A stretch of DNA of 64,000 bases from Styela clava (Eukaryota): assembly GCF_964204865.1 (NCBI RefSeq), contig NC_135264.1, positions 4,960,001 to 5,024,000 on the forward strand, given 5' to 3'. Below the pieces are notes generated by a model. That model was not told the origin of the DNA, made no database searches, and was given only the letters and a program-made list of their open reading frames with translations. This document shows positions 25,223 through 49,383 of this stretch, piece by piece. The translations under genes were made by a program, and so were the position numbers. Position 1 is the first letter of the stretch. Every line of letters begins with the position of its first letter.

Positions 25223-28200
25223 CTAAGCCGAGGAACAGTATTTTATATAGTTCTCCCTTTCTATGGCTGTGGGATTTATTTGAAGCGAAGCATGTATAGT
25301 ATTTTTATCTAGTTCTCCAAATATAAATCTCCCACGTGAATCTCGCTTTAACTTCTCTTTGAATTCTGCATCTTCAACAACAAGCAGAACAACGAAATAG
25401 TGTTTCTTTGTGATGGAAATTCCCATCTTCGATACAATAGACAAGCTCGAGATGTTGACTATCATATATATATGCCGAAAGCGCTGCTCATTTTTTAAAA
25501 TTCGTGTTCAGCTGAAAATGATTTGAATAATTGCAGCCATGAAATAAGAGTCTACTAATTTTCTCTCCACAACATTGTACTGATAAGTATGACGGAGTCA
25601 ATTTGATCCTATCGAAAGCATTAAATCATCGATTCGGTTTTGAATTTTTTTTCAATCATCTACCATTTCGATTTAAAAAAGTTACGCATTTTTGGATAGT
25701 CATTCATTGTGGTTATTGGACACATAGTAGGCATATATATGGATCCCTTTGTTATTGGACACGTTCAGTGGACATAACGATCGTTTCAATATTTTGTTGT
25801 TGTTCTTGTTGTTATTATATTTCGTCATCATTATAAAATCGCTTTTCTCTTCGAATATTGAACCAATTGCTTTAAGCAATTGCTTGCTTTTCAGTGAGTA
25901 AAGATCATATTTTTCGCTAGAAGGCTATTACTTTCATTTATCAATGTATTGTGCGCTATTACGCCATCATAATTTGCCACTATGTGGCGCAACGTGTTCA
26001 TATATTTGAGCATAGCTCTCTTGTTATGTTTTTGTTAGAATTTTTCTTCCTGCCACTTTTTAAAAAATCGCTTCTCTCTCTTTTATTACTGGACCAATTG
26101 TTTTGAAATTTTCAGTGGTCAAGGTTGATTTTTTTGCTAGAAGGCTATTACTTTTTCTTATTACAAACACAAAATATTTTGTGAGCTCTAAGAGATTTTT
26201 TTGATGACGTCATCAAAATAAATTTAATCCGCCAAGCGTGACGGCGGTCGTGAACTTTTATTTTTGCAAAATCTTGCTACGATGAGGTCCGAAGTTTCTC
26301 GACACCCGCGAGGGACGCCAACAATACGGTAAATTACTGTGAATGATAAAGTACTTTAAATCAATTAATACTTCAGTTGTTAGTTGGATAATATCGCAAT
26401 TTCAATTCACGCTGGCACAAGAGAGGAACTGGTAAAGTTAGGGCAGTTCGGGCACCATTACTGCTAAGTTACGCTACGGTACCGTCCCGTATCTGCTTCA
26501 CTGTTCAGCTTTGGTCAGGATACGGTGTAAATTGATGGTAAAATATTTTGTTTTGTTCTACATAAGAAAGAATGGATCATCTTCACAGGACCGGGACAAG
26601 CTACAGTTATTCATGGATACGATGGGTACCTTGGTGACGTGGTGTGATTCGGATCAGTTGGTATTCAAATTCACATTGAAGCCAAATCATGAGGGAAGGA
26701 TCATCGTCACGGGACCTGGAAAGGTTAGGGCAGTCCGTGTACTGTAACCCTGATAGGCCCGCAGAGTAGTAAGCAACTCGCCACAGAGGCTATCTCATGA
26801 TGGGCCCGCCATTCCGCTGCGATTATTGGACTATTTTGTCTTCGTCGGAAGGGATAGGATTCACTTAAAATTTCAATAGTGATATTGAATTATATGTGTT
26901 TTGATTTGAATGAGTGCAAGCGATAACAAAGTGACCGGACATTGTGCTGCTGAGATACCTTACCATATTGCATATGTTTTTCGGAGGAATTGATGGTAAG
27001 ATATTTTGTTTTGCCAGCCGTGTCCATATATTTGAGCATAGCTCTCTTGTTTTTAAAACAGAATAAAATTCACAGAAGATATGTAATATTCAATCGGCAT
27101 TATTGCGAATATAAACCAAAGATTTAAAGTATAAAGTTGCCAAAAAATAATAAAAGCAAAAAGAAATATGTGGAAAACGTTTTTGCTACATAGTTGTTGT
27201 TCCTGTTTGAAATGGGGATCTTCCTCCAGATTTTACTGAAAATAAATATTCAACCGTTAATTTGAAAGTTTCATTTGTTGCCAAATGAAATTGTTAACAA
27301 AGCTTTTAGGTGTATGTTTGTATTTCCACCCCTGTGTGGAAACTTTTCCATAGCAAGAGCGACATTGTTGGTAATGATGTTTTATTTACAGGTGTGTCAG
27401 ATCAAAAAACGTTATTCTTAGATCCAAACATGGAACCTGGTTGTAAAGATTTTTTTTCAGCCAATCATATATCGTAGACTTGATTCGTGTTTTATAAATC
27501 ATAACTTACGAAAGTTTGAAATACTTTTCATTGTTCGTCTATATTTTGTGCGTAGTTTGACTGAAGAGGCTTGAAAATATATTTTTTTTTTATCATTTTG
27601 AAAATATACTATCTTCACCTTTATTATGGCTCAATGATGAACGGATCCTGTTCCCTATGCCTCTCAACCATACATCACGAACTTCCTTCCTCCATACGCA
27701 GAATATAAAGAAGATGAAAGTTCCCTGAAAAATGAATTTCTTGCATTTCTAACATTGAGCTGTATTTCTTATATATATGTAAACCGCTGAATAGGTGCTA
27801 CTTTGCTCAATGGAATTTCAAATGATTGCCTACAAACTGAATTCAATATTTAATGATTTAAAAGAGGAAGTATTGAAATGTCAATCCAAGCTCAATAAGT
27901 ATACTTCTATCTATACTAACAATACTCTCAAATATTAAATACCGGAAAGTTATTCATTGATTTGCATAAACAAAACATTTTCGTACCTGGAATGCATTGA
28001 ACAATGAAAACAGCCAATCGAACACTAAGTTCACATGTTGATTATCGGTCGTTGTTAAAGGTATAGCAAAAGCCCATGTCAAGCCAAGAACAGCAGAAAG
28101 TGTTGCAACTCGAAAAACATGATCTTTTAGTTGTAAATTTACGGATCTCTGCCCAAGCTATAAATAAATGATATATACGTGTAAGCATTGATGCTGCAAA

Positions 28201-31200
28201 AATAATCTTTTTTTTCTGGCAGTTAAAAAAAGGGAATTTATTTTACTTTTAGGTATATGCTACACCAACATTGTGTTTTATTATAATTAATATATTTTTT
28301 TTAATCTTGTGGCAGTTGTGCATTGAGACAGTTTGAGCCGTCTAAATGCATCATAATATGGTGTAATAATATTGTAAGTATGGTCAAATCAAATGTGTCC
28401 ATTTTTCATGATCGTTTTGATCGCTCTGTACTTACATCAGGCGGATGGCGGCAGATTTTTCTCAGTAACAGAAAGAATCCTAAAACATTAATACATAAAA
28501 CAATTCCAGCTGGAACAAGAAATCCAAAATAGAGTGAATACGAATGAAGCCAACATAGTCTATCGCTGATATAATGAGAGTCGAGAGAACGAACATGCGA
28601 ATCTGAAAATAGAAGAAAATGAACTTAATATGTTTTTACGGGAAAGTAAAATCTTAATTAGTAATGAGTTGTGTTCTTTGAAATAAAATAGTTTGTAAAC
28701 AAACATTTGAAGAGATATGTCATATTTCGTAAAGATTTCCACGCACCTCAATCAATCTACTTGCTGATATTTTGTATAGAAACTTATCTAGAAATTTATC
28801 TACGCATCTCCTAATGTAAGAATGTAGTACTGGTGTGATTCAAATTTGACTGGATATTTTATTAGCATATTATGCAAGTGACGCAGTCAGTCAAGGCTTT
28901 ACTTGAAGTTTAAACTGCTTTGATGAAATGCCTGCTGTTAGAATTTTGGGTGTAAGTCACTAACTATCATTATAAAAATCGATACATCCGTTAGGGAATT
29001 ACCTGAAGCCCTTAAAAATGCTTAACATCTTAAATCTCATGCTCAAAATCTTAGACTGCAACTATCAAAAAAATTATGTTTACAAAATGTGTAAAATAAT
29101 ATGAAACTTTTAGTTTCTGCATTGTCTTACAATCTTCACTTTCAGTATTATGACGAATTTTCCAGTTCAAATTTTGCACGGAATCTTCGGATATAGTTGT
29201 GTGTGCAACAATTATAGTTACTCCAGAAATACTTGTTGATATTGAATAAACTAAGATTGCACATTTCAACACATATTTTTCCCCGATTGACATGACGACG
29301 GTGACCAGTTTTCTAAAACAACATGTTATTTCAAAATAAAGATGATATTAGAGAAATATTCATAGCAAATATGTTAATCGATGATTACCTTTATAGTGAA
29401 GTTCGATAGTACTACAAAAATATCATTTTGCCACAACGTCACAATCAATCATCACGTGGCATATAAAACAATCGAACAGTGAATATAAAATTCGAACTGC
29501 ATTACCATGAAAGTTACGACAGAGTCTTTTTGAATGCTTAACATCAGTGAATTCACAGTTATACATTTGCTATTCATTCAACTTTATTCTACATTTTAAC
29601 ACATCCCATTGTTATTTTTTCCTAAAATACTCAAAATTGCTGCACGTATATTTTAAAATGTTTTGTCAAGCTGTTATAAATGTATTACTATTAGCACCAA
29701 TCGGTTTTATTGATGCCTTTACATACAAAAACTTAAATCTAGAAATGTAAATTAAAATTCCATACCTGTATATTGTAATGAATTCTACAAGCATCCATCC
29801 CCATGCACATAGCAACGATAATTGTAAAATAAATCCAACTGCTGCACATGCAATGTAGTTATCATTTGATCTCTCAACTCCACCAATGAATGTAATATAG
29901 GCTAGTAACAAGCAAACACTCAGATGAATGTGAATTTGGTTCAAGTCATTTGTTCGTAGTGTCCTATGGTAAAAAGGAGATCAGTGAGATAACAAATCAT
30001 ATGAATGAAGTTTTTGAATACCGAAAAATTGAAAAAAGAAAAAGGTTATCTGAAAAACAGATGATAGTTGATACAAATCAGACATACAGCTTCTAGGATT
30101 GTTTTTAATCTTTTCTTTTTGTTCATTTATTCCCACCGAGTCAATCAAAATTCAGATTCTGATGAAGCATAAAGTCTAAGTTAAAATTTACAAGTCATCT
30201 ACATAACAAAGCATTTTCTCCCTGAGCTTCATCTAAGTATGTCCTTTCTACATTTTTGCTCTTCTTTCTATTAAATGCCAAGACCTGTTGAATTATGATT
30301 CATTCTTAGTGCAGAATTTTGTGTTTTCACACAACATTCAATAAAAAAATGAAATAAATATTTAAAAACGAATATTAAAAGCATTTAAACCAAATACAAA
30401 TTAGCATTGAAATAACTTGGAGGATATTTTCGTATGATCGTGAAAATACCTGGAAGAAATATAGATAGTCAGAAGTAGAGACAATCCGATAATTGAGCTG
30501 ATGCACCCAATTTTTCCAATAACATCCAATGCAAAATTTCTTTTTACGCAATAGGTTTGCTGTAAACAAAAACAATGGATCGCATTTTACTTTTCAGAAT
30601 TAGTTCTTATTTTGTGTTATAAAATACCTACAATTTGCATAAAAAATCCCGAAAAGTTAATTTGGAAATGAAGATATTTGTGGGATAAATATTAAGTAAA
30701 ATCTCAACCTCATATCCAAAAAGAACACATAGAAAAGAGAACGTGAAGTGTTATAGAATCATTAGAACATAGAAAGGTTTAAGATTGAATATAGTCTTTA
30801 AAATTCTAATTTAAAAAATAGATAAGAATTTTCAGAAATCGAAAATAAAACTATTCACCACCAAAATCGCAAAATTAGTTGTGTGATTGCAGGAACATAT
30901 TGTCAAATTATTTGATTGGTCAATATCTGTAATGCATCCATCAAATTTCCACTTCGAATTGGGAATGCTTAAATATGCACATCTTTCTAATGGAATAGTC
31001 TGACTACAGGCCTGTAGAAAAATTTAAAAGCGAAGAAGTGAAAAATAGCACAAAAAGTATTATTTATATCTTTCTGTGGCTGAGAATTCGGTAACTCATA
31101 GAAGGGTATCTTAAACAAGACTGTCATCAGATATCATTCTTGGGAGATTGCTATACAACGCAAGTTAATTTAGAAACAACTCAATTAGACCTTCGTAGAT

Positions 31201-34200
31201 TAGATTATAAGTAAGTTAGATATGTTCAGTGGGTAAGCTGTACCCGGAACGCACCAGGTTGTTAAATATTTTACGGCATTTGCGTTTCTGTTGTTGAAAT
31301 AGAATTATGTCATAGAAAGTTTAGTTTTTTTGTAAACCTGGTTATGAACTGTACGCTTTGTAACATCATAATTGTTTTTACATCGCAGCAGACGAATAAT
31401 TAGTACAGCCATAACGTGTGTAAGAGATGTTTCTCTGACCTTTGACCCCAGAAAAATTAAACAAATAATTAATACAGCCATTAATAAGAACATGACAGGT
31501 ATTTTTGACTTAATAATAACATTTGTATTGAATTGCCAAAAAATATACTTGTCATTTTAGAGTCTAAAATTTAGACGAACATATTTCGGATAATTTCTTG
31601 TATCTCTCTGCTCTATTTTAGGACACTTCACTTTAGGATCACTTAATTTGTTCAACATCTATGTGTAATTTTATTATTACTATATCAGAATACTTGTACT
31701 AGAGATTATCATTCTTACATTTTCATCCTTCCTGTCCTTGTCTGTATGAGGAAATGAATGTTTGATAGGATCTGATAAATCTTTTAATTTTGTGCTGGAT
31801 ATCTGAGTGCTGACAATCTTAATATTCAATATGTAAATATGAAAGTTGTCACTGATATATCTTTCACAACTAAATAAGTGAGAGATCAACGGTATTGAAT
31901 TGTGACTGAGATTTCAACTGTGTTTAGTAATTTACTGTAGCATAAACTATCAAAGCCTATATTTGACAAATTGCTTACCTGTCCGACATGGATCGTTGGA
32001 TTATGTGGTTTCGGAAACAGAATTCCATTTTTATGAAAATAAAATATTGCTTTTGATGAATTTTTTATCGCAGTTACCGGAACGGCAGATGCTGGAATAA
32101 TTGATTTCACAAGTTGTGCGCCATCAGATCTGAGGTCAACTGTGGAATTATGAATACGCCCAAAAAACACGATTGGATTTGCAGATGGCAATTCACTCTC
32201 TAGCATTCGTGCCTGTATAAAGTTTTCGTTTGATTTATACACTTAAAAATATTAAACACAAGGAATTCCAATGGTTTACTCATTTGTAAATGAAAAATAA
32301 TGAAAAAAAAGGCAAATACTTCCAATATTTAGCATAAAGTTATAACATATTAAACTTCACAGAAATAAAATGCTAAATTTGTACCACTGTAGCGCAACAG
32401 TGAGAATAAACCAGTGAACAGCCATGAACTTACCATTTCATCCAATTAAATGCAAGATAAAGTGCCTGAATGATGAAATAAAAAACGCTGCAACAAACGG
32501 GAATACTACTCGTGTATACGTTTTTAGGATCCTTATATGAAAAAGCAATAATACTCTCGAAGTAGCGGAATAGAGTAAATGACTAATTGAAAATGCAATG
32601 AAAAACATCTTAGAGTCGTGGTTAGTTTTTGTTGTAAATTTGTACTAAACTCATACTGACAGCTGTTGTAACAAAGGCACAAATGTAATAATATATGACC
32701 TATCATATAATTTAAGTAACTACATCCGGTCCAGTGAAGATTTGTGACAATATACATGCCCAGTTTCTAAGACGAAACGCAGGAATTATTAGGCTGAGAC
32801 GTTTTATTTTTGTTTGTCTTTTCTATTCTTTTATAAAAACAAATGGACAAGAATATTATTATTTCTGAGATTTATTGCTGGTATTTTTATATTTAATGAA
32901 AAAAATAAATCTATTTAACTTGCGTTTGTTAGACCTATAATACTAAACCTCAAATCCAGTTCGCTGACCACTAATGGTCAATTTATCCCGCATCATAATT
33001 ACGTTAGACGGAAAAAATTCTAATGATTCTGCAAATAGAACTTTGTCTCTTTCTGTCAGATTTGTGGTGTTGCTATTCATCGCGGCAATAATAATGTTGT
33101 CTGTTGTCCAGATGAGATAATACATTGTAGTATCTGTGACCTGGAAAAAATTGTTGTTGTGGAAACACGAAATAACCTATACCCGACAAATAATAATTCT
33201 AATCGGCAATATTAACCAGAAAACTTTCTTCAATTAGTCACATACAGCAAACAAAAAAGTTTGTTTTTCATTGAAGCAAGAGTAAACTTCGCCCCAGATC
33301 ATAGGAGCTTGTGAATGTAATGAAATTATTGTATCACAGAAGTATATTCTTTTTCGTGTATTAGTAAAATGTGTGCCAATCTTGAGTTTTGAAGATGAAC
33401 GAGTTTTTATAAGCATGACTGCAAGGTGTGATATGCATTTTTAGTACTGCATGAGCAACTGGCAAACAACGCTTTGAGACCCAATTCTCGGAATTACCTC
33501 AAACTGTATTTTGGAAGTAATCCGTTATCAATTGTGTCTGATTCAGTTCTGATTAAATGCTTAGTTACAAAAGGTCGTATTTATAAAGTTCATTTCCTTG
33601 TTCCTGGTTATTCTAAAACAAACTAACTGTTCTGCTTATTTCCGCGTGTGACTTATCTCACGTTTCCTATATTTGATAGATATTTCCTAATTTATTTAAA
33701 ATAAGTATACAAACTGGCTTTTCCTATTGTCTGCCATTCTCGTTCTACGCCAGAAATATGAGTAATACTGTACTAGGTAACTTTTTGTTACGTAGACCTC
33801 TGAATAAGCATTAAGCACGCAAAGGTCAAATCAGGTCCGTGCTAATACAAGTATTACAATGGTACAAGATTTACAAATGGTTGATGTGGTAAAAGGGATG
33901 CGAGTAGTATATAAGAGGTACAGAACATTTTTATAAAACCGAATCAATTGGTAACCATTCATATTGATCTATATTCTATAAGATATATTTCTAAATTAAA
34001 ATGAAAATAGATTTGACTCGGACTGTTAGCCCGTGTTATATTTTCCTGTATTACGTTTAACATAGGCATATATAAATATACAGGGCGTCCTAAAATAAAT
34101 AAACCCACAAAATTGCTATTACATAGGTTGATTTCAACTCTATATGTATTTCAACTTTATCCCATAGCTTTGAATTTAGAAGAAAAGCTTTTTTTGTGAG

Positions 34201-37200
34201 CTCTGAAAATATAAATTATAGAGTTGAATCAACCTATTTTATTAGCAATTTTGTGGGTTTCGTTCATTTTAGAACGTCCTTTATATATAATGTAGTATTC
34301 ATACCTCAATTTCTAACTTTTTGATTTTAATGCCCAGTACATTAACCACTTTAACTACATTTGTAACATCTTCTTTGACATGACCTCGCTGAGAAGAAAA
34401 TTTTTGAGAGATGGCATTTGCAGAAGCAATGCAACGTTCAACAGACGAAGTATTTGCACGTTTAGTCTTTACCTGAAAATAAAAAGCGGTCATTGAAGTG
34501 AAAAAAAAACGCTTTTGCATTAAAATACCTCACAAACGTACCATTTTTTACCATGTCTGTAGTAGGCATAACGATGCAAATCAGACTTTTATTTTACACG
34601 ACAATGATATTCATTATTAGTATAGCATTCATATATGCTGTAAAAATACCGTTTGCATATCTACCTCAATTAACAAATCATAGGAACTAATGTTGCAAAG
34701 TACTTCCATCAGGGTTGTTTTATCAAAATATGCATAAACACTCCCGTCTAAATTCTTTTTCTCCACACATCGTATCGATGCGGTGTACTTGACGTCTAAA
34801 ATAGGAACAAAAAGATTACTCCGACGCTTTAGTTTTGATGCACCCAGCATTGCAGTAGGTGGTTGAAATTTATTATTTTATGTGAAATATGGATGCAAAT
34901 TAACCAAATATAATCAACTATAAAGTATAAATAATATTTCAATAAATCTACCTGGATTTGCGCATGTTTCTTTTGAAGGAACCAATGTGTTCACGATCGC
35001 TTGTTTGAAAATATAGAAATCAGTATGCTTTGATCGTACTTTCGATTCACGACAGATATCTTTTGCTGTGAAATTTTCTACAAAATTAGAGGACATATCA
35101 TGCATTGAGGCGTTATACTAGACACAAAACAAAATGTAATGGCGAAGTACAATAATATTTATAGACTAGAACTGTTCTAGAAAAAGCAAATCCGGATCTT
35201 TTATTGCTTGAAAACTCTTGACCAAATGTTATTCAAGCAATCTTGTGGCACAAGCCAAAATATTTTTTACATGAAACATGACATAAACACAAAAACTCAA
35301 ATAAATATTAAGATGACCGAACATGCACCTCTGATCATCATCATGCGCAAACTTCCCCTAGGTTTACCTTCACAGAAGTCTTCTACCAGCGACAATGAGA
35401 TATCAGATAGGAAAATGTTTTCATTTGTAAACACATTTTTTTCACTAACGCCGCCATTGGCAATAATTTTCAGTTCCGTCAAGTTATATTGACCAATTCC
35501 AATTGCATATGACGTTACATTACGCTCAACCGATTCGTGATACCTGATGGCAAAAAATATTCAATATGATGTATCTGTACAGTAGATCTGGTATTCAAAC
35601 AATTCAGTTTAAAATAATCTCTACAAATTTCAAGCGAAAATTGAGGGGCCAAAAACTAAGGAATCAAATAAGTACATTGGATAAAATAAAATCAAAACAC
35701 AATGAACATCAATTCATTCCAAGCACAGTTTTTGAGAAATTGGAATCCACTGTGGATAAATGTTCGGTGTAAAAAGTGAACATCTTCTGAAATTATGGTT
35801 GGAAATCGCTCCCAGTGACTTTCGCTTGTGTAATATCATCATTACCAATATGCGTAGATAAGAAAATGTTGTGCCAAACCTGGTACGAGTCTATTGAAAA
35901 GCGTTCTCACCTATGGCCTTCGATGATATAATAAATATCATAAAATAATATGAACCCAAAAATGTTCACGATGTAGCAAAAAAAGTTCATCAGCGCCATG
36001 TACTTCATACGTGATGTGCTTATAATTCCATTTATATTTTTCAACTTAGTATCGGTCTTTATTAATAGAACTGAATCATTTCCCTTTTTGCACGTAGCAA
36101 TCTTATACAAACCAGTCCAGTAAATATGTGCCATCGTTTGAATGTCCATCTGTTATTAAAACAAGACTCTTCGAAGAGAAATTTGCTCTAGGAGAATGGG
36201 GATATTCGACCTAAACAAAATTGGGAGACAATCATGTGACTCTACCCATGTATACAATTCATACCGTAATTGTAGCAAGATAATTTTCAAAAACAAAGGT
36301 TCAGTCACACTGTCTTTTTATTATTATTTTTGTTGCGTCACTTATTATCGAATGATGTTTCATATGAAATAAACGATATCACATCAATATAATTTAATTA
36401 ACGTTTTCTAGTTTCGTATCACCTCTTGGATGGTCTAAAATATCAAAGTAAGTTAGCACAAAAAAATTCGCACTTCGACAATTCGTTTGAGCGCGGAGTA
36501 AGTGTACGTCCCATGGCGTATTTGCGTCATATTGATTATTTTTTTTTCCATGCAATTTTTTGATAAGCAATCTCCCAATCTGAATGGAATTTCAAATTCG
36601 TTTCTCCTGAAAGAACTGTAACTGTAAATAGAAAATAAGGTAATTTCATCCGAAAAGAGTCATTTGTTCTCTGTGTCCATCAGATGGAGCATTGCTCTCT
36701 TGTTTGAATTTTTCAATATATTAATTTTAAACTTTTTGCTACGTTTTGTGATAATCTTTTTCATTTGTACTGTATTTTTTAACGTAACATGCTGTCGTGG
36801 TCGATCAGTATATAAAAATTTATTATATATTCTATACTGGACTTCCAGTTACAAATACTGCTTATAATATTCTCTTTTTAGCCAGTCATGTATCATTCAC
36901 GCCAAACAAACATCATAATCCCTAACCCGGAATACTGCAATATCCCGATTTGAACCTTCGAATCAAGTTTGTCATAGATGCTGGATGTCATTAATGTTAG
37001 CCATTGTCGTATGGTTTCAAATGTTTCACCAAAAATAGAACCCGATCCATCAACGACAAAAACAACGTCAACGTAATTACAATAATATGCTGAAAATAAG
37101 GTTTTGTATTTAAAATAGTTAAAGGAATAGGACGATGCATTTTAATTTTAAGCAACTTCATATATATGCCTATCACCAAATAGTACACTCGTTTATTTGC

Positions 37201-37581
37201 CAACTCAAAATAACGCAACTTTGCCGCTTTTGTAGCATTAGTACATACATATATGGTATACAAATCAAAACTATCTTTGAAAATAATTAGGCACAACATC
37301 GCTAAATAAAGTGATACTTGAGGCATTCTATTTGGAGAAACCATGCCTCATAATTTAAAAATAATATTATAGCTATGAAACATTAATCGAGCGCCTCATT
37401 CCAACAGAGGCAAGTGCGTTTGTATATAAATTGAATTATGTATTGATATTGCTTACTACCTTCATTTTTATCGCGTTTGGCTAATTAAAATGCACTTACG
37501 TGAAATAGTTGTATTTTTTCCTCCTGTTACCGATGCATTCACTATGAGAATTACCAAAACCTCTTTAATGCACCAGAACAT
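25223..37581 (-). CDS. adhesion GPCR with N-terminal VWA (MIDAS) domain, GAIN/GPS and 7TM
   Basis: Signal exon 37581-37500. VWA exons 37089-36927 (DVVFVVDGSGSI...QIGILQYS), 36621-36474 (GTYTYSAL), 36210-36113 (LVLITDGHSND), 35543-~35367 (SYAIGIG). Further exons 35117-34952, 34795-34665, 34472-34305, 33140-32949, 32212-31979, 31817-31719. GPS exon 31011-30859 (WKFDGC...CSCNHTTNFAILV). TM exons 30449-?, 29963-29766 (WMLVE), 29312-29131, 28602-28436 (CWL), 28157-27987 (LGLTWAF, FNAFQ), 27724-27619 (GTFIFFIFCVWRKEVR). Probable last exon 25371-25223, alternatively a stop at 27593. The TM1 exon and one junction are unresolved. Confidence 0.85.
25700..27051. repeat. interspersed repeat cluster (Helentron/DINE-1-like ends), homologous to 38220-38800
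   Basis: Two copies of the terminus catatatttgagcatagctctcttgtt (near 26000-26024 and 27025-27051; a related copy at about 36672-36705). Internal duplications are present, and 26649-26755 aligns with 38668-38774. Confidence 0.55.
34081..34281. mobile_element. Tc1/mariner-like MITE (long imperfect palindrome, TA flanks)
   Basis: cagggcgtcctaaaat..aaacccacaaaattgcta..ataggttgatt..caactctata is mirrored at 34217-34281; flanked by TA. Confidence 0.7.
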
Positions 37582-38219
37582 TTTCAATACTTTTCTGGTT
37601 TATCGTGCTGCTCAGATTTCAGAAAAAAAAACTTTGATGAAAAACTTTCAATTGTTGAATAAGTTACACACCCCTGTTTGCAAATAAATCAAGATTAGTT
37701 ATCAATTCTTTTCATATTCTTATTTTTCTTAACTTTATTTAAGATTAATCTCTAGCATATACGTTGTCTCCAATCGTTCAATTTTTTCAGCTGCTGTCGT
37801 TAGTTTAGCGTCCGCCGTACAGTGATGAAAATTCATTTAATGGGACCTCGACTCATTGTAGGCCACTGCCACGAAGTGTGATTACACGAGTGACTGGCCA
37901 CAGCGTCAGCGTGTGTGCGTTTTCAGTTTGTCGATATATACTAAGTTTATATCAGTGCATTTCATGTTAAAAATTGTGAGCTAGCTTTATGCTTCCTACT
38001 TTTTGTTATTGAATGGAAATTTAATACTTACAAAGCAGTCAAATATTAATAAAAAAAATTTACCACGACTTCGACTAGATCGATAGATTATCCATAGAAA
38101 TCAATATATATTAATATATTATAATCCCTGCTGTGGCAAGCAGCCTTGCATTATAGTATACGCATACGGATCCACTAGCGCAAAAGTATTGAGGGAAGGA
38201 CTGGGAGTTAGTCTCGTTT

Positions 38220-38800
38220 ACCCTCTGCTCATATTTATTGGGCACGGAACGGACCTATGGACCGTTTGTTGTTTTGTTATTATGTTGTTGTTTTTGTTCT
38301 TGTTGTAAAAAAAGTTCTTCCTAACGTCATGAAAAAATCGCCTTCTTTTTAATCCCTGGAACAATTGCTTGAGACTTTCAATGATTAGGGATTGTATTTT
38401 TTGGTAAAAATTCATTACTTTTTTATTTCAAAAATGTCTGTGGGCTTTATGGGATTCGTTTCCTGTGAGCTATGAGGTCATTTCTTTCTTGTTGTAAAAA
38501 ATCGTCTTTCTCTTCAATAATGACGTCAATAAAAACTGTCCACCTTGTGGCGGTTTCGTGAACGCACATCAGCGGATGTAGTGCTCAGCGAACGTCGGCG
38601 TTATTCGTACTTAGCAGAAGTGGGACGTTTTTGCCCGGGAAACGGTAGACTGTGGTACAGTAATAACTCGGATCAGTTGCTATTTCAATTCACGTTGAAA
38701 CTGAATCATGAATAATGGATCATCGTCACAGGACCTAGAAAAGCTGGGGCGATTCCTGTAACAGAACCCTGATATGGAGGCGGGCAACTCGACTGCACAG
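38220..38800. repeat. second copy of the repeat family at 25700-27051
   Basis: Shared blocks aaaatcg..ttct, atgacgtca, and tcggatcagttg..ttcaattcac..ggatcatcgtcac.ggacct..aaccctgata. Confidence 0.6.
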
Positions 38801-38839
38801 ACCATTGCATTCCAGTTACCTATTTATATTGCTATATAA

Positions 38840-40700
38840 ACCGGTGCAAAGGGAAAAATACCTCGTGCACGGACCGTGTGTCCCATTTGCTCACTCGATT
38901 TCAATTCTCTAGTACAGGGTAAGTCACATTTTAGACGTGTACATAATGGAAAAGCTGTTCCCTTGATGGCGAGTTTCTTGTGGAGATTTCGATTACCACG
39001 GCTAAAACTTCCGTTCCACTTTTGGACACCTGCACAAACACACCCCTTTTCTTTGCCTATTGCCTGGGTGTCGTCAGAGAGCACACCGGTACAGCGAATT
39101 AAGAGCGCTGTATACTCGTACACTGGCTTCCACAAGCAAAACTTTCGCTGGTTCCGGTGTGCGGCAGGTGTTCTATGTAAAATGCAAGAATCAAAAATCC
39201 CACTGGGTTGCCTGCCACCCGATGTACTCCGAACTCTCCGATTGTCGCCTGTTCCAATCTTAGGTTTGTCGTCGGGCCCTCCTGCTACCCCCCCCCCCCC
39301 CCCCCTCCCCTCCTATTTTTCCTGCTTCCTCATTTTTATCTACTCCCATGATTCCTTTTTGTTCACATTCTGAAAACACCGTCCCAAAAACTTATTCTAC
39401 CTCCAAATTTGAAAAGATAGAAAAAAAACTGTCACTTTCTATGCTTCTTATTCCTCTCCATCTTCGCCCGGTTCGCCCCGACAAAACCCATTGGACGGAC
39501 GCCGGCCCCCAAACCGTTATTCACGTTCAGCCCAGAAACAGGCTAAATCAAACCAATTGAACGGCGAACGTGGGTGTCGGCCAGGGTTCAGTCTTCAGTT
39601 GAGGGCGGCTTTTTGGAGAAATCAGAAAAGCACGGTTAGGTCGATCATCGAAGATTCACTTGGTGAACTGCAGTGACGAAGATTCACTTGGTGAACTGGT
39701 GACTTGGCGATGCCTTCGTGGATAAGGTAAAGCTTTGCCGGACGTCGGTTACCAGTTACGATGTGGGCCGGACGTGATCGCCAAGGGCCAGGGCTACGCA
39801 GACGATTCTGCCCTGTGTGTGCCGTCGCGGCAACAGTTGGAGGCGCAACTTTCAATATGTGAAGAGGCACAATGGTCGCGGACAATGAGTCTTCCCATCT
39901 CTGGTCCGCGTGGTTGCTCGTGCTCGGCTGGGCGAGGTTTTATCGAGGCCAGGAGGCGACACAGGCCCCGATAATCGACTTTCTCAATCGTGATAACTCC
40001 TCTGAGCCAAACGGACGGCGCATCGGTCCGTATGGTGATATCTGTAGGGCCAACTGCGCTCTATGGGTTGCCGTATCGGTCTCTGCTGGGCTGTCTCCTC
40101 AGAGCGGAACTTTACCACTAACAATCTCCTGGGCGAGAGCGGCAAGAAGATAACTCGGGTGTTTCAGGGGAAGACAGTTGACTGTCACTCCCCGTTCGGT
40201 TTGGTCAAACCACTCTCTCTCCACGTCTGTCTCTTTCGCTCAAACCACTCTCTCTCCACGTCTGTCTCTCTCGCTCAATTTCAGATTTCGTGGGTTTTGA
40301 AATCTCGATTAATTTTTTTGCCGCTGCAATCCGTTTGTAGACGGTTTACGGCAAATGGGGAACTGATTCGATTCTCGAGGAAATCGATGTGATGTGCCCA
40401 TTCGACAACGGCCAGGCCACCATAGATGACGCGGCTCGTCGGAAACACTCACAAAATATGAGAAGTTAGGTCGCTCTATTGCTCTTGCCTCTAGCAAAGT
40501 GGTGGGGTTCTACGCTTTTATTGTTAGTTCTCTCGGCAGTTATGTCGTTGAAACCAGACTGCTCTTCGTGCTTTGGGTGTGACCGGAAGGGTCGCTACGG
40601 CAGTCTCCCATAACTGCGTCAGGAACTCCATCCGGGGTTCCCGCCTCTGGCGGGCTTAGTGCGGACTTCCTGGAAGTTTCGACTAATCTGACTTCACCCT
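38840..40700 (+). mobile_element. internally deleted RLE-type non-LTR retrotransposon (NeSL/Utopia-like), degenerate
   Basis: Motifs in the expected order: C2H2 finger CPICSLDFNSLVQGKSHFRRVH (38879-38944); RT GYADDSAL...QQLEAQL (YADD 39795-39806); restriction-like endonuclease IDVMCPFDNG...ARRK..KY (40383-) and AFIVSSLGSY (about 40514-40543). Frameshifts and stops; GC-rich relative to flanks. Confidence 0.8.
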
Positions 40701-41824
40701 CTTTTCTGACACTGCATTTTACTCTTTCTTTAATTTCTTCTCCTTTCTCAGTGTGTGTATGAGGTGTGTTGGTGATCTTGAGTGATTTTTTTATAATTTG
40801 TTAGGTCATATCACCCAGTTGACTAGCTGTTCCCAAGGTAGTTTGATCCGTTTTCTCACTGAAATAACTCAATTGATCCAGTGGCTCAATTTGTTTAGTT
40901 GTATTTTTATCGCTCTCCCCATCACTTATCTTCACAGATTCACGGCAATAGGCATGGACCACCATATATATATTTGTTTATTCCGCTCGCCTCCATTATC
41001 TCAATATTAATTCTCAGATTTATCATACGTAATCAAATTATAATTTTGATCAATTGTCTTTAGATTTTTTTCTTTCTGCGACCACTTCACACTTTTCTTC
41101 ACTTTAATTCGGTCGATAGTAGAAGGCGAGCGGTATTTATTATACAGTCGTTTTCATCTTTAGAACCCATTTCCGAGTTGGCCAGCCCTTCGCAGCAAGA
41201 TTATTTTACGGTATTTTTTCAGTGTGGTTTTTGCTCGGTGGGTTGGCCGCGACTGGCGTTGATTCAAATGTCATACACTTTAATTATATATCCGCTAGAT
41301 CACGAACCACTCGAAAAGCATCCGACATTTATTTCATATATCTTTGGGGGGCTGGCCTAGTTAGATGAGCCGCATCATTTACTTTTATATTGACATGTGT
41401 TATTTTCATTACATGCTCAATTCATTTCTTATTTAGGATGAATATAATTTGTATTTACTTGTATAAATACTGTTCCAGCCCTCCTGCGTGGGGGAGGCCA
41501 GGTTTACTGGCGATGTACCGCAATAAAAGAAAAGCAGATCGTGATTTGATGTGTCGAAGCTGAACGTTACAAGTTGAGTGGGCGGGAAACAATTATTTGG
41601 AGAAACAAAGAAGAACGCTTCCCCCGACCGGAACAAAACCAAACGCAGACGATCCATTATGCGGGACAGAACTATTGTTACGTCACAACTTTGCTTATAG
41701 TTGTTCAAGCTCCTGGGGGTCGCGAAAAAAATTGTGCCAAGTGGGACGTGATCAAAAAAGTTATCTGAAAGCTACTTGGAATTTGAATTCACTTCCGTTC
41801 CACGAAATGGTGAAGAAAAGCCGC

Positions 41825-42305
41825 CATGGCGCAGCCAAGGGATTACCCCCTGCCCCCTTTTGAAATTTTTAGAAGACTGAAAAAATCGCTTATAACGCGT
41901 GCGATTGCAGTTAGTAAATCGTCCATTGTTTTTGTCATGGTAACGCATTATTTAAGCGTAAACACCTTCGCGGCGGTGTTTATTCTCCCCAAATCACAAA
42001 TTTTGTCTTGTGCCTCGACAATGATGATAATTACGTTTTGTCGTGGTATTTTAGAATTGCGATGCATTTTCGTTGTAATCAATTAAATTGTACTCGATAG
42101 GATTTTATATCACATCTTGAGGTTTTTGGAATGGTGATAACAAATTCGCAAGATCCTAAAAATTCATATCAAAATTAAATATTTCAACCGGTAGAAAAGT
42201 AATTATACGCTGAAAAAATCGACTATTTTAACGAGTGACTGTTTCAGAAGGGAATGGGAATTTTCGATTTTAAACCCTCCTTTGCAAATCCTAACTGCGC
42301 GCATG
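41825..42305. mobile_element. non-autonomous DNA element with imperfect TIRs and 6-bp flanking direct repeat
   Basis: Ends catggcgcagcc / ctaactgcgcgcatg; agccgc at 41819-41824 and 42306-42311. Confidence 0.5.
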
Positions 42306-43829: not shown

Positions 43830-46800
43830 TCATTTTTGTCTACCAATTGTCGGTGTATCATTCTTACGATACAGATGGAACTCAGCAACACCTGGAAACA
43901 AAATGTTGTTGGTCAGTTGAAAAGTCAAGCATATCATGTTTGCGGCGCTATTGATGAGTGCAATTCTGCAGTTCAGAGATGAATTCATTTATACACAGAT
44001 TCAGTATAAATAATAAGCATTAATAATTCAAAAAATATGGCTTTTTTGTGATAATGATTTTTGTCAATTTACGGCACTGTACCACTACATGAAGTATTAT
44101 GCCTAAAATTATTATATATATCTCTACTATAAAATTTGAAAAAATTCTTACCATACGCCAGAACCGAAATTACGAGCAAGGCAATGTGAATGTAGATTTT
44201 TGAACCTACGCATAGAAATGGACTCCAGAAATATCCAATTGTTATACCAATTGTAATGCAAACATTCCGCACACTGAAAGAAATCTCGCGATTTTCTGGG
44301 AAATATTGTGCAACGATAGCTGAAATAGGAATTTTATATAAGTTCAGCTTTCTCTACCGATTTTGTAGAAAGTATTCAATGCTTTCACGCATACATAGTT
44401 TTATTAATACTAAATAACTGTATTATTGTTTCATATTAGATTTTACTATCAATAAAACGCCTAATTTGAAATTTTACCAGGATTACCCTGTAGTGCGTTC
44501 AGTTGAGAGTTCTGATATTTCGAACAAATCGTTTCATTGTATGTTAACTGTTAAGCCTTACAGAACGGGCATTCAAACCATTACCAAACGGAAGTTTGTG
44601 TAATAGTTACTATCTACTAAGAATTTGAACTTGTCCGCTAATTTGCCTTACCTACTGTGGAATTTTTCCATAGTGCGTCAGTCACTCCAAATCCCACAGA
44701 TAAAAAGTAGACAAGGAATGTAGTGCTGGTAGTAGGTTTCCAAAATTCACAGAGCAAATAGTTGGCCAATGTCAATGTAGCAATGGTTGCTACGGTTGCG
44801 TTCTTGCCAAAAAATCCTATGATTTTGCCAATCAAAAGCGATGCTCCAATGTGAAAAACATCATACAATACCAATACAGGTCCAACCTTGTGATAATAAA
44901 ATGAGCTAAGAATTTCATGTTGGAAAGAAGCAATATGATAACATACCATCAAAAAGTTCCTTTCATGGATAAAATGATTCGGTTTTCAAAGAACATGGTA
45001 TATAATATATATATATCAGGGGTGGCCAACCTGCTTTCAACCGGATCGACTAAAATCTTCAAAATAGATCGCGATCGGCTGATCAGTAATAAGGTCCTAC
45101 ACAAAAACGAATGGGCGCTGATTTATTTAAATCATACAATTCAGATAAAGGGCGTGCCTAATTTTTAGTCGTAACAATTGAAAATTCTTTGAGAAACCTT
45201 GCAAAGTTTTCATGTATTATCCAAACAGCGAAAAATTAATATTCTCAATCTATGAATGTTACAAGACTACTCAAACTTCAGTATGTAATTTACAATTTCC
45301 TCCAAAAGCGATTCTTCGCTTGCTTAGAATTAGAACAAATTGGGCATTTTGATGCCACTGCTACCATTGCGAATAAAATTTATCACATTACTCTTGGAGT
45401 GAGACAATAACTTTCGCATACTGTGGAAGTTGTTGTAGGATCGTTTGTCAGTCTAGACACGCGATATTCGGCACTTCATTTTTGAACCTTGGCAGCGGAA
45501 AAACCTACATTTGTTAGGGAACAATATGCTTTACCGGGCTTGCCCAGACTTAAATACCGTATGTGTATATTGTATTGTGCGCATGTAAAGAACTGTATTC
45601 TTTCTGTTGTTAAACACACAACTGGTTCGAGGCAATTTTTGGGGGTATTTCAATAAAATTCACTCAACATCAGACGCGATCGACGTGTTGGCCACCCCTG
45701 GTATATATGTATAATCACTTGTAAACTTTGATTCATTTCTATTACCTGGTTACTTTCTGTCGTGTCCACTTAGTTTTTCATGTTTCTTTATTTGAAATTT
45801 GTATGCTGTAGCGTGTGTTTGGTTAGCAAAGTTGTAAGCTTACAGAAAGGATAGTCAATTTGGCTATATCAAATATTCAATAGTTAATTGTAAGTGTACT
45901 TCTGTCATTTCGGTAATTTCTCACCATTTCTACTCCCAATATACACGATGAAAAAGCTCTGTTCATTTCTGAGTAAACGAATGCCAAGAATAATCCATAA
46001 TGCAGCAACATTGGAAATAGCAAAATTTGCTTTAAAGAGATTGTATGCTTCATGGTCGCCTTCAAAGTCGCCAATAAGGAAACGTCTATTTTCTGTTTGT
46101 TTACAAAGAATAAATTAAATTAGCCTCATACTTACTTAACTAAATGGTTAGATCCCGTTGTGAACATGAATCACGGGCAAAAACAAAAACTTCGTTCAGT
46201 GCAAATAGCTGGGGGATCATTGTTAGTTTTAAGTGCAAAGATATTACATAGCACATCATCGGCTTTGCAGTTTTGTGCTATTGAACAAACTATATCAACC
46301 ATTGCACCATTGACCACCAAATTTGTTCCTGCCCATTTTGGAATGATATTCAAAAATGATGATATTGAGATACTCACTTTTGTTGTTTTGTCAACGGAAA
46401 CGTCTTCGCTTTCATCAATTTCGGTTGGTTTTGTGACATTTTTTACTTCTGAATTTACTAAAAACTTCGCGTGTAAACCAATAGCACAAAGCGCTACCAG
46501 AATAAAAGCTCCCATAAGACTATAAACAGAAATTGCATTAGGAGGGACGTAGTTATTGAGAAATTTTTTAGTAACGTTAGGATTTTGGCAGTCGTTCGCT
46601 CCACAGTGTTCGTAGTTATTCATCATGGTAGTACCGTTGAATAGACCTACTGTAGAGTTTGTTGTTGTATTTTCTATATCGCTCCTTGTACTGTATAATA
46701 TTGCGTAACTGAGAATGCTGGTAAATATCTGAATTCAACAAAATACTCGTTATGAATGGAGAATGATGTAGCCTACGGCGCCAATTCTCATCTCAGCTAT

Positions 46801-49012
46801 TTCACATGATTCGTTTTTGTTCATAATAATTAGGTATCTACGGACTAAATCGAAAATTGTTGACATGGGCTGACGCGAAACATATTAAAATGATGTACAT
46901 TGTCATGAAGTCTATTCGCCTGTCAGCTGAATGTGTGCTGATGTGAGTTTCAAATGTTGAAAGCACTAGGGAGGTTAAAAGACGGGGTGATAATATAGCA
47001 ATAATCCTCATGATTTTACCCCAATTTCGGAGTTTTACTCCCATTTCAGTTAAAATTACGAAAAAGACAAGCGACAATCAGATGTGAACTTACAGTACGA
47101 ACTAAACTAATGCGACTATATCTGCTATTAACACAAGAGTTGAGTAATTGTGTAATGCGAGAGAAAATATATAAGTCATATATTACCCTCCCAGATCGTA
47201 GGATAGCAAAGAATTGTCCCGTATATTTTCTTTCATAATCATCGGATTCTTTACTTCCGTATAATCCATGCATTTGACCAAATACAATGTTATATATTGG
47301 CATTGTTGTCCAAACCAGGGAGCTTCCTATTCCTTCCAAAATTCCAACCGGGATCATAATATATGGTGCTGAAAATATGGTAAATGAATATTGCTAATAG
47401 TGTTATTTTAATGCTTTGTGGTTTGAAACTGATACAAATTTTTACCTGGATAAAAATTTCCAGCGACGAAAAGAATGGCTGCAGTTTCTCCTAAAACTAG
47501 AGACCATTTGTAGCCAATCCTAAATATAAATCAGTGCATGACTAAAATGTCTGCCTTGTTTAACAAAAAAATACATCATGGCTCGGTAACAAGAGCCATA
47601 AGAGCTAGAGTGTTTAGAGCAGCGGTTCTCAACCGGAGGCCCTCGGCCCCCTAAGGGGCGCCACAGAGGAGTTGGAGGGGGGCCACAAGGATGGGCTGAA
47701 ATCTGAATTTACTTTTCACTTTAAAAGAAATCTCACAGTTTTTCCTAGTTTGCTGCTCAACAAGGTTATTTCGCAGGGTGTTTTCGCTCTCTTTTGTGCA
47801 AGTTGTTTTAACATAATGGGATTTGGAATCTATCAATGAAAATAACCCTATTAATACCTCTGGAATATTAAAGTGGGGGCCATGAGTGCTAAAAGCCTCC
47901 GAAAGGGGGCCACGAGTCATAAAAGGTTGAGAACCACTGGTTCAGAGTTTCTAATCAAAATAGATGGGATGATGCAGATGAAAAAAGAACAAAAGCATAA
48001 ACTCAAAGAATTTTAACGATTGAAATCCTTCCCGTTTCACAGAAAAGATTTGAGTTGTCCGTTTAGGCTCTATGTCCATCACATCAGCTATGATGTAATG
48101 AATGAGGTGACTTATTGCGTACCGGGAAGATTGCTGTGAGGCCAGGAAACATATTGATCCACACATCCACTTGCAGTAATTGCTTCTCACTATAAGCAGC
48201 GGAGAAGTGGTATAAAATAACTAAGTAAACCGTGTTTATGTAATTATCCAGTTTTGTAATAGGAGTACTTGTAATCATAGCTTCTAGCAGTTTTTTAAAA
48301 CAAAGATACTAATGTTTATACTTTCGTATGATCAGTGGGGTGCAGAACAGTCCAGCCAAAGTTGAAGTCAATTTAGAAGTTCCCAAAGTCTTTGTGCCTG
48401 TCAAACAAAGTACGCAGAAAATGAAATTTGTTTGTCAATCAAAGTTTTGGTGATATTTATTTTTCATTACATAAATAAAGTCAATTTATCTCGGACATGC
48501 TTTATAATATAATAACTTAAAATTTGCTATAACTTGAACTTTGCTACTATACCGATAAGGGAAAAGGATACGAGATGAAATTTCAAAAACATTGACTGAA
48601 GTGTCACTGTTAACTGAGAGTCACATCCAACACGTCAAGTCGATAGTTGCACAATTTGAGATACTTGTACATTTTTTACAGATGAGTTGCAATATTTTCA
48701 CATATCACACTCGTTGTAGTTCTGAGTGTGAAGTGGCATATGCTTTTGATAGGAAAAACTTATTATTCTGCTTTCCGTGGTTCAGTTTGTTTTTATTTAA
48801 ATTTTCCACAAAGTGTGGTACTTACCAATGTTCTTTTTAATATTTATGCTGCTCTGTAGACTGCTAACTGACATGATTGTGCCTTGGAGAAGTAAACATC
48901 CCAAGGCAAAGATATAAAAATTAATCGTAACTTTTCTGATATTTTTCCGTTTTGATAGATTTCCGTACACTTTGCGTGGAACATCTGTAACGTCGTTTCT
49001 CGCCATTCTCAT
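43830..49012 (-). CDS. UNC93A: protein unc-93 homolog A-like MFS membrane protein, 9 coding exons
   Basis: In-phase exons 49012-48826, 48397-48322, 47519-47446, 47368-47187, 46728-46378, 46092-45925, 44886-44652, 44319-44152, 43891-43830. UNC-93 hallmarks: SLQSSIN, IGYKWSLV, GNFYP, GIGSSLVWT, CGANDC, RAFSSCILGVEMVG, GVTDALW. Confidence 0.9.
45017..45700. mobile_element. hAT MITE in an UNC93A-like intron
   Basis: TIRs caggggtggccaac / gttggccacccctg; TSD atatatat / gtatatat (7/8). Confidence 0.85.
47620..47939. mobile_element. hAT (Charlie-like) MITE in an UNC93A-like intron
   Basis: TIRs cagcggttctcaacc / ggttgagaaccactg; TSD gtttagag / gttcagag (7/8). Confidence 0.85.
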
Positions 49013-49383
49013 TTCTTGCTTAGGGGGTATTTTGTTTAACGCAAGACCTAAAATGTAACTGAATATTCCAGTACTGTGTTCAACTATAAAAGGTATTAAA
49101 TAATTTAACTTAAATTTATTGATCTATAAGCTGTTTATTGCTAAATGCGTAAAATTATAAAGAAAAATTGTGTTGAGCGCTTATACAAAACAATTGACTC
49201 ATTTCTCGCTTTTTGGTATTTTTTTCAACGCAAAACCTAAAATTTAACTGAGTACTATGTTCAACTATATAAGGTATTAAATAATTTAAGGTAAAATTTA
49301 TTGATCTATATAAACTGTTTATTGCTGAATGCGTAAAATTATAAAGAAAAGTTATGTTGAGCGCTTATACAAAACAATTGACA
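49008..49383. repeat. tandem duplication (about 190 bp x2) spanning the UNC93A-like start codon and upstream acceptor
   Basis: ctcatttct..ggtatttt..aacgcaa.acctaaaat...gagcgcttatacaaaacaattgac occurs twice, head-to-tail. Confidence 0.9.

What the first reader, a model, noticed from the sequence alone, without database searches (positions are those of the whole stretch)
35367..37581. Adhesion GPCR carrying an integrin-I-like VWA domain with a complete MIDAS
Directly after the signal peptide is a VWA domain with DGSGS, the Thr loop (GTYT) and TDG, which is a full metal-ion-dependent adhesion site. It lies on the same strand upstream of a GAIN/GPS with a cleavable-looking HT|TNFAILV tethered agonist. 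To my knowledge no human adhesion GPCR has a VWA domain, so this may couple integrin-style Mg2+-dependent ligand binding (collagen or complement-like) to G-protein signalling. The ORF track misses it because the domain is split over four exons.
Basis: partly seen in the sequence, partly recalled or inferred. Interest (0 to 1): 0.7.

Follow-up and report, generated by a model that had tools for sequence, protein, structure and literature searches.

The report
Adhesion GPCR with borrowed VWA tip
A sea-squirt gene splices a collagen-type, likely metal-binding VWA domain onto the outer tip of an adhesion G-protein-coupled receptor, which would let gripping another protein switch on signalling; the same module sits on a second, distantly related receptor in this genome and was likely gained separately in lancelets.

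Summary
Confirmed. The window holds one 19-exon gene with an open frame of 911-917 aa: signal peptide, VWA, HormR-like segment, GAIN/GPS, 7TM. It matches RefSeq models labelled Styela clava. All five MIDAS residues are present. The doubted junction uses acceptor 35077 or 35059, not 35117; 35368→35059 is seen in a spliced contig. 13 of 18 introns are seen, but no record spans VWA to GPS.

The domain is collagen-type VWA, not an integrin I domain. It is a phase 1-1 four-exon cassette from a local VWA-EGF family. The same cassette (64% identical) sits on a second aGPCR whose GPS-7TM is 26% identical. Close paralogues carry mucin/EGF/SEA or SRCR instead. Lancelet gene models have VWA+GPS+7TM of separate origin (AU p=6e-5).

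A second version differs at 10 VWA residues, 9 in metal-face loops (post hoc). Nine literature searches found no description; aGPCR domain shuffling is known. The scan noted a VWA on a different GPCR class in another genome. Ligand, cleavage and signalling are untested. New variant of a known kind.

The parts
37500..37581 (-). Exon 1: start codon and signal peptide; ends in phase 1
   Evidence: no RNA junction seen
36927..37089 (-). Exon 2: VWA part 1, Cys31 and DxSxS (D41, S43, S45); phase 1-2
   Evidence: Pfam VWA E=7.9e-8 on the exon frame alone
36474..36621 (-). Exon 3: VWA part 2 with MIDAS Thr120; alternative acceptor at 36606 in RefSeq isoform X2; phase 2-0
36113..36210 (-). Exon 4: VWA part 3 with MIDAS Asp152; phase 0-2
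   Evidence: joint to exon 5 in contig X7 with only 21 bases on this side
35368..35543 (-). Exon 5: VWA part 4, last helix and Cys221; phase 2-1; the polymorphic exon
34665..35077 (-). Exons 6-7 (35077 or 35059-34952; 34795-34665): Cys-containing beta-rich segment, HormR/GPR128_N-like (inferred); first exons shared with VWA-less paralogues
   Evidence: relatives, not this protein, hit PF22257
31719..34472 (-). Exons 8-11: GAIN subdomain A helices and most of subdomain B
   Evidence: model; Foldseek hits 4DLO, 8OEK, 4DLQ, 6V55; junctions except intron 9
30859..31011 (-). Exon 12: GPS motif; His582-Thr583 | Thr584, Stachel-like stretch follows
   Evidence: Pfam GPS E=5.1e-11
27619..30559 (-). 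Exons 13-18: seven transmembrane helices
   Evidence: junctions except intron 14
27186..27235 (-). Exon 19 coding part and stop; UTR reaches at least 27063

Best explanation
This is a single expressed adhesion GPCR gene whose outer tip is a collagen-type VWA domain with all five MIDAS residues, likely gained by exon shuffling, and it would signal when the VWA grips a protein ligand through a bound Mg2+ and pull on that grip frees or repositions the tethered agonist. Shown: exon structure, open frame, domain order, MIDAS residues, VWA and GAIN folds (predicted models), shared cassette phases, tree positions. Inferred: the cassette was copied from a local VWA-EGF gene family and entered through phase-1 introns between the signal exon and the HormR-like exon, replacing a mucin/EGF/SEA-type tip. 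Inferred from family knowledge: GAIN self-cleaves at His-Thr|Thr in the ER and the halves stay together. An acidic ligand residue would complete the metal site, and the Stachel would then enter the 7TM pocket and activate a G protein. Coupling would run through GAIN as a tether, not through the integrin internal-ligand route. The ligand is likely a variable surface protein (matrix, tunic, other cell or microbe).
For: Open 19-exon frame, identical to RefSeq P0001/P0003. 13 of 18 introns are seen as joints in contigs of 8 laid runs, 2 of them with under 31 bases on one side. The VWA-to-next-exon joint is among them. VWA model pLDDT about 90, Z 25.0, rmsd 2.0, 177 aligned to 1IDO; MIDAS alignment (definition in PMC4237329). 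Cassette phases 1-2-0-2-1 are the same in P0004, whose VWA is 64% and GPS-7TM 26% identical, with a different exon skeleton. The nearest 7TM paralogue P0154 (63%) has the same exon skeleton from exon 6 on, preceded by 1-1 mucin, EGF and SEA exons. In the VWA tree both receptors nest among Styela non-GPCR VWA rows (100/100). The Stachel fits TxFxxL (PMC13197933).
Against: No record spans VWA to GPS. Introns 1, 2, 3, 9 and 14 were not seen. The runs are RNA by guess only and at low depth. The one contig with the key junction carries the second VWA version, whose older RefSeq model (P0002, 346 aa) ends before the GPS. P-1 is Thr, against the usual Leu/Ile; H-T|T occurs in 19 of 109 GPS/7TM hits, with cleavage unknown. 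An intact MIDAS shows no binding. The full-length model is poor in the VWA part (pTM 0.50), so domain contacts are unknown.
Confidence: 0.6

Rival explanations
1. The VWA exons mainly make a short secreted VWA protein, and the 7TM part is a separate or broken product.
For: The older RefSeq model P0002 is 346 aa. Its tail is encoded at 28911 in intron 15, which fits loss of about 5.4 kb between two copies of a 4-base word. Contig X7 matches that version in exon 5 and in acceptor choice. Another X7 contig ends at 34349, near the left break.
Against: This assembly has all 19 exons in frame. Contig X5 reads through exon 8 into exon 9. Exon 6 has no start or signal peptide and needs a phase-1 exon upstream. 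The X7 run also has sequence inside the supposedly lost stretch. P0004 and two lancelet models show the fusion type. A deletion allele or an older assembly error may exist beside the full receptor.
Confidence: 0.1
2. The receptor is full length, but the MIDAS is only inherited from the donor family; the VWA binds without metal or oligomerises, and/or the GPS is not cleaved, so activation does not need Stachel release.
For: Nearly all tree rows, receptor or not, keep the motif, so conservation is not specific to receptors. PMC12422189 reports oligomers for an ancestral collagen-derived I domain. P-1 is non-canonical.
Against: All five residues are kept in both receptors and in both versions of this one while neighbouring loops change. 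His and Thr of the cleavage site are kept across the subfamily.
Confidence: 0.22
3. The receptor is an orphan by-product of frequent exon shuffling in an expanded family and has little function.
For: Low depth in all runs; at least 150 VWA and 55 GPS matches in the genome offer many chances; one version may be truncated.
Against: Intact 911-917 aa frame. Receptor VWAs differ from their paralogue more in loops (25 of 49) than elsewhere (43 of 140; Fisher p=0.015). The fusion type occurs on three separate 7TM branches.
Confidence: 0.08

Closest known systems
Adhesion GPCRs (class B2); best PDB sequence hits human ADGRG6, ADGRL3, ADGRG2; RefSeq label 'ADGRG6-like'
   Same: GAIN/GPS plus 7tm_2, HormR-like segment, Stachel-like stretch
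   Different: The tip is VWA. No CUB or pentraxin hit. It sits in a clade of 8 rows, the named ones Styela and Ciona (99*). Orthology to a vertebrate gene was not tested.
Lancelet aGPCR models P0113 (KAI8510944.1) and P0176 (RefSeq, hybrid Branchiostoma)
   Same: VWA with DxSxS, T and D upstream of GAIN-7TM
   Different: Long sushi/EGF/SEA stalk; P0176 has two VWAs. Their VWA nests among lancelet VWA-sushi proteins, and one clade with the Styela domains is rejected. They are gene models only; I saw no transcript for them.
Second Styela receptor P0004 (XP_039257095.2)
   Same: Same four-exon VWA cassette, 64% identical, full MIDAS
   Different: VWA-EGF-EGF-GAIN-7TM; 13 exons, 26% identical GPS-7TM, far apart on the 7TM tree
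Integrin alpha-I domains (alphaM, alphaX, alpha2)
   Same: Fold and five MIDAS residues; also a VWA borrowed by a signalling receptor in chordates (PMC12422189)
   Different: No beta-propeller host, no I/LEGT internal ligand, C-terminal Cys kept; about 25% identity
Collagen VI / matrix-type VWA domains and the Styela VWA-EGF family (e.g. G000:C2:20.86 Mb, P0092)
   Same: Flanking Cys, MIDAS, same exon breaks
   Different: No GPS match downstream; P0092 is VWA-EGF with one hydrophobic stretch near its end

Membership tests
Adhesion GPCR | Secretin-class 7TM (7tm_2) | tested here: met
   Pfam E=1.4e-23, profile 3-250 of 250; model shows the helices
Adhesion GPCR | GAIN domain with GPS motif before TM1 | tested here: met
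   GPS E=3e-9; Foldseek hits to GAIN/HormR structures 4DLO E=5.5e-13, 6V55, 8OEK
Adhesion GPCR | Cleavage tripeptide His-Leu/Ile|Ser/Thr | tested here: inconclusive
   His and Thr present, P-1 is Thr
Adhesion GPCR | Tethered agonist TxFxxLM | tested here: met
   T584, F586, L589 match; last position is Val
Adhesion GPCR | One transcript joining ectodomain and 7TM | tested here: inconclusive
   13 of 18 junctions seen in separate contigs, none spanning; RefSeq models join them
Adhesion GPCR | G-protein coupling | not testable with these tools
   needs a cell assay
VWA domain with MIDAS | VWA fold | tested here: met
   Pfam E=4.6e-24; model Z 25.0, rmsd 2.0, 177 aligned
VWA domain with MIDAS | DxSxS, T and D at the alphaM-equivalent positions | tested here: met
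   alignment to alphaM I domain; all invariant in alignment A2 of 12 rows
VWA domain with MIDAS | Metal-dependent ligand binding | not testable with these tools
   needs purified protein
Integrin alpha-I domain | I/LEGT internal ligand after the last helix | tested here: not met
   no match in the protein (feature from PMC12422189)
Integrin alpha-I domain | No C-terminal cysteine | tested here: not met
   Cys221 present
Integrin alpha-I domain | Inserted in an alpha-subunit beta-propeller | tested here: not met
   flanked by signal exon and HormR-like exon
ADGRG6/GPR126 orthologue | CUB and pentraxin domains at the N-terminus | tested here: not met
   the only N-terminal Pfam hit is VWA, which fills aa 31-221 (CUB/PTX named)
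ADGRG6/GPR126 orthologue | 7TM orthology with the vertebrate gene | not tested
   the tree held no named vertebrate rows

The most novel reading that the evidence does not exclude
Invertebrate chordates have repeatedly built MIDAS-tipped adhesion GPCRs (three separate 7TM lineages, two separate VWA origins), a GPCR parallel to the integrin I-domain insertion. This one is a polymorphic recognition receptor whose metal-face loops are under diversifying or balancing selection, used for self/non-self or microbe sensing, possibly with a deletion allele that releases a soluble decoy.
Probability: 0.25. Interest if true: 0.75.

Novelty: new variant of a known kind. Interest (0 to 1): 0.5.

Why it matters
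It would give a short (about 915 aa) adhesion GPCR whose adhesion can be switched with a chelator or one point mutation. That makes it a direct test of whether ligand grip plus force, rather than binding alone, activates the tethered agonist. It also shows exon shuffling with matched intron phases: one cassette on two distant receptor cores, and different cassettes on one core. The excess of changes on the ligand face points to a variable partner. Against this, domain shuffling in invertebrate aGPCRs is already in print (PMC2246102), and the gene is annotated, so the surprise is moderate.

Tried and rejected
Acceptors 35176, 35171, 35165 and 35117 for exon 6: all give early stops. No RNA holder is on record. 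Runs X1-X3 did not cover the VWA exons. ESM Atlas did not hold P0001. With P0174 it gave only EGF-type aGPCR clusters at scores of 0.82 or less, none listing VWA, which shows neither novelty nor absence. The homologue search with the VWA-HormR region gave 3 hits of 1463 candidates, none an aGPCR outside Styela; its sensitivity is limited. Single origin of Styela and lancelet receptor VWAs was rejected. A VWA match 52 kb upstream of the GPS at C13:2214957 was set aside, since that GPS matches P0010, which begins with SRCR domains. The VWA in the Halichondria figure legend belongs to SRCR and CTLD rows in the stored, cut supplement, not to GPCRs. Excess amino-acid change in VWA versus the next 122 aa is not significant (10/195 vs 1/122, p=0.056), nor is 8 of 8 nonsynonymous alone (p=0.14). 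The first full-length model had low confidence in the VWA and was replaced by a second model. No complex prediction was run because no ligand candidate exists. A direct comparison of exon 6 with P0113 was not completed.

Full report
Observation. I read the minus strand, listed splice sites by coordinate and built a 19-exon model. All 18 introns are GT-AG and the frame stays open for 911-917 aa, depending on acceptor choice. The MIDAS residues D41, S43, S45, T120 and D152 (P0003 numbering) align with those of the integrin alphaM I domain. Single exon frames already hit VWA, GPS and 7tm_2; the whole protein hits them at 4.6e-24, 3e-9 and 1.4e-23.

Transcript evidence. I laid 8 of the 9 runs guessed to be RNA; all are contigs at low depth. 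Thirteen of 18 introns appear as joints (4-8, 10-13, 15-18); introns 4 and 13 have under 31 bases on one side. The joint 35368→35059 has 47 bases on the short side. Introns 1, 2, 3, 9 and 14 were not seen, and no record spans VWA to GPS. RefSeq holds two isoforms (XP_077976642.1 and XP_077976643.1, labelled Styela clava 'ADGRG6-like'). They map to the same exons, with acceptor 35077 and two acceptors for exon 3. The gene is therefore annotated already, with the VWA visible in its precomputed Pfam list.

Anatomy. Signal peptide 1-20; VWA 31-221, with Cys at both ends; a beta-rich Cys segment about 229-298 (HormR-like, inferred); GAIN about 302-590; 7TM about 599-876; short tail. The full model (pLDDT 67, pTM 0.50) matches GAIN/HormR and aGPCR 7TM structures. 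A second model of the VWA, built on P0002, has pLDDT about 90 over residues 31-190. It matches alphaM I at Z 25.0, rmsd 2.0 over 177 residues, with collagen VI and vWF A domains within 1-2 Z units. PMC12422189 (passages) says integrin I domains carry an I/LEGT internal ligand and lack the C-terminal Cys kept in collagen VWAs. This domain has the Cys and no such motif. It is a matrix-type VWA that could work like an I domain at the metal site, but it is not one.

Origin. The VWA lies on four exons with phases 1-2-0-2-1. A second receptor on the same contig (P0004, C19:11.67-11.69 Mb) has the same cassette, 64% identical, followed by two EGF exons and a different 13-exon core whose GPS-7TM is 26% identical. 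The closest 7TM paralogue (P0154, 63%) shares the exon skeleton from exon 6 onward but has 1-1 mucin, EGF and SEA exons upstream. Other relatives carry SRCR x4, EGF or C-type lectin. Non-GPCR VWA genes on C2, C4 and C5 break at the same places. In a tree of 38 VWA rows the receptor domains nest among them. Two of 55 GPS matches have one of 150 listed VWA matches within 15 kb upstream on the same strand (both lists are lower bounds). Exon shuffling through phase-1 introns is the inference; which receptor got the cassette first is not settled.

Elsewhere. Among 153 stored proteins, 87 had a GPS/7TM match and 4 of these also a VWA: two isoforms of this gene, P0004, and lancelet P0113. A follow-up search found a RefSeq lancelet model, P0176, 1 further such architecture among 111 hits. 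The lancelet VWAs nest among lancelet VWA-sushi proteins. Holding them in one clade with the Styela domains is rejected (p-AU 5.6e-5). On a quick 7TM tree of 80 rows the VWA label needs 3 changes, forced by starred branches. That tree left out 29 of 109 hits (isoforms, near-copies, spans outside 260-480 aa), and P0004 is a long branch. These searches are not a census.

A second version. The older model P0002 (XP_039258031.1) differs at 10 VWA residues and 1 of the next 122. Contig X7 carries the same 7 changes in exon 5, with all 8 listed base differences nonsynonymous, and the same acceptor. The genome searches show one near-identical copy only, so an allele is likely. Nine of the 10 changes lie in loops that I assign to the metal face (49 of 189 residues, p=2e-5). 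I drew those loops after seeing the data, from the model's secondary structure and recalled I-domain topology, so this is a lead. G44R lies inside the motif but spares the ligands. P0002 ends early; its tail is encoded at 28911, which fits loss of 5.4 kb between 34345 and 28913, as an allele or an assembly error. I could not test this.

Mechanism. By family knowledge (PMC13197933, section 10 and passages), GAIN cleaves at His-Leu/Ile|Ser/Thr and a TxFxxLM agonist activates the 7TM. Here the site is His-Thr|Thr and the agonist matches except for the last residue. By MIDAS chemistry (PMC4237329, passages) a ligand glutamate completes the metal site. I put about 0.9 on the full-length receptor and 0.6 on the whole chain of metal-dependent grip, tether pull and Stachel activation. 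The ligand is unknown.

Literature. Nine searches returned no paper that I found to describe a VWA-bearing aGPCR; most hits I saw only as listings. Term look-ups gave no VWA/Willebrand in PMC2396169 (Ciona GPCRs), PMC12716839 and its preprint (section 11 part 2 read; one small supplement), PMC4302439, PMC2246102 or the first 300,000 characters of PMC13197933. PMC6208332, PMC8242945 and PMC11797021 mention it in other contexts. Figures, most supplements and subscription papers were not visible; domain figures there could show this architecture. PMC2246102 already reports many new aGPCR domains in amphioxus and suggests domain shuffling. An unreviewed scan note (e1-7883474) reports a VWA on an LGR-like GPCR in another genome; I did not test it.

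Verdict. Real, annotated, apparently undescribed architecture; new variant of a known kind; interest 0.5.

Noticed in passing
G000:C19:11693775-11672000 (L001-L003): Second VWA-bearing adhesion GPCR (VWA-EGF-EGF-GAIN-7TM), 13 exons; another GPS/7TM gene lies just downstream near 11.66 Mb.
   Followed up: yes
window 34345-28913: The older RefSeq model fits loss of this 5.4 kb between two copies of a 4-base word: deletion allele or assembly error.
   Followed up: partly
window 26500-30200: Runs X1-X3 give unspliced contigs over the 3' half of the gene, and X3 shows a GT-AG joint 26994-27391 on the + strand, which suggests an overlapping antisense transcript.
   Followed up: no
window 31817 and 35059: Two used acceptors are AAG sites lying downstream of other AG sites.
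   Followed up: partly
G000:C13:14484001-14503093 (L004, L005): A paralogue with nine small Thr-rich 1-1 exons whose RefSeq model stops within the 7TM, although the later 7TM exons are present.
   Followed up: no
G000:C4:19.36-19.58 Mb and C5:10.5-10.8 Mb: Large tandem arrays of VWA exons, part of an expanded VWA family.
   Followed up: partly
window 60031-61768, minus strand: Collagen repeat plus C-type lectin exons, collectin-like (weak Pfam hits).
   Followed up: no
   Followed up: no
window 44072-49123, minus strand: Multi-pass membrane protein exons, UNC-93-like by eye (recalled); no Pfam hit at E 0.1 for the four frames scanned.
   Followed up: no
window 38000-42000; 27019-27054; 31500-31536; 38157-38194: A GC-rich stretch (44-46%) upstream of the gene and short high-depth repeats.
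   Followed up: no
window 1151-2801, minus strand: Exons with a weak CILP-like hit (E=0.005).
   Followed up: no
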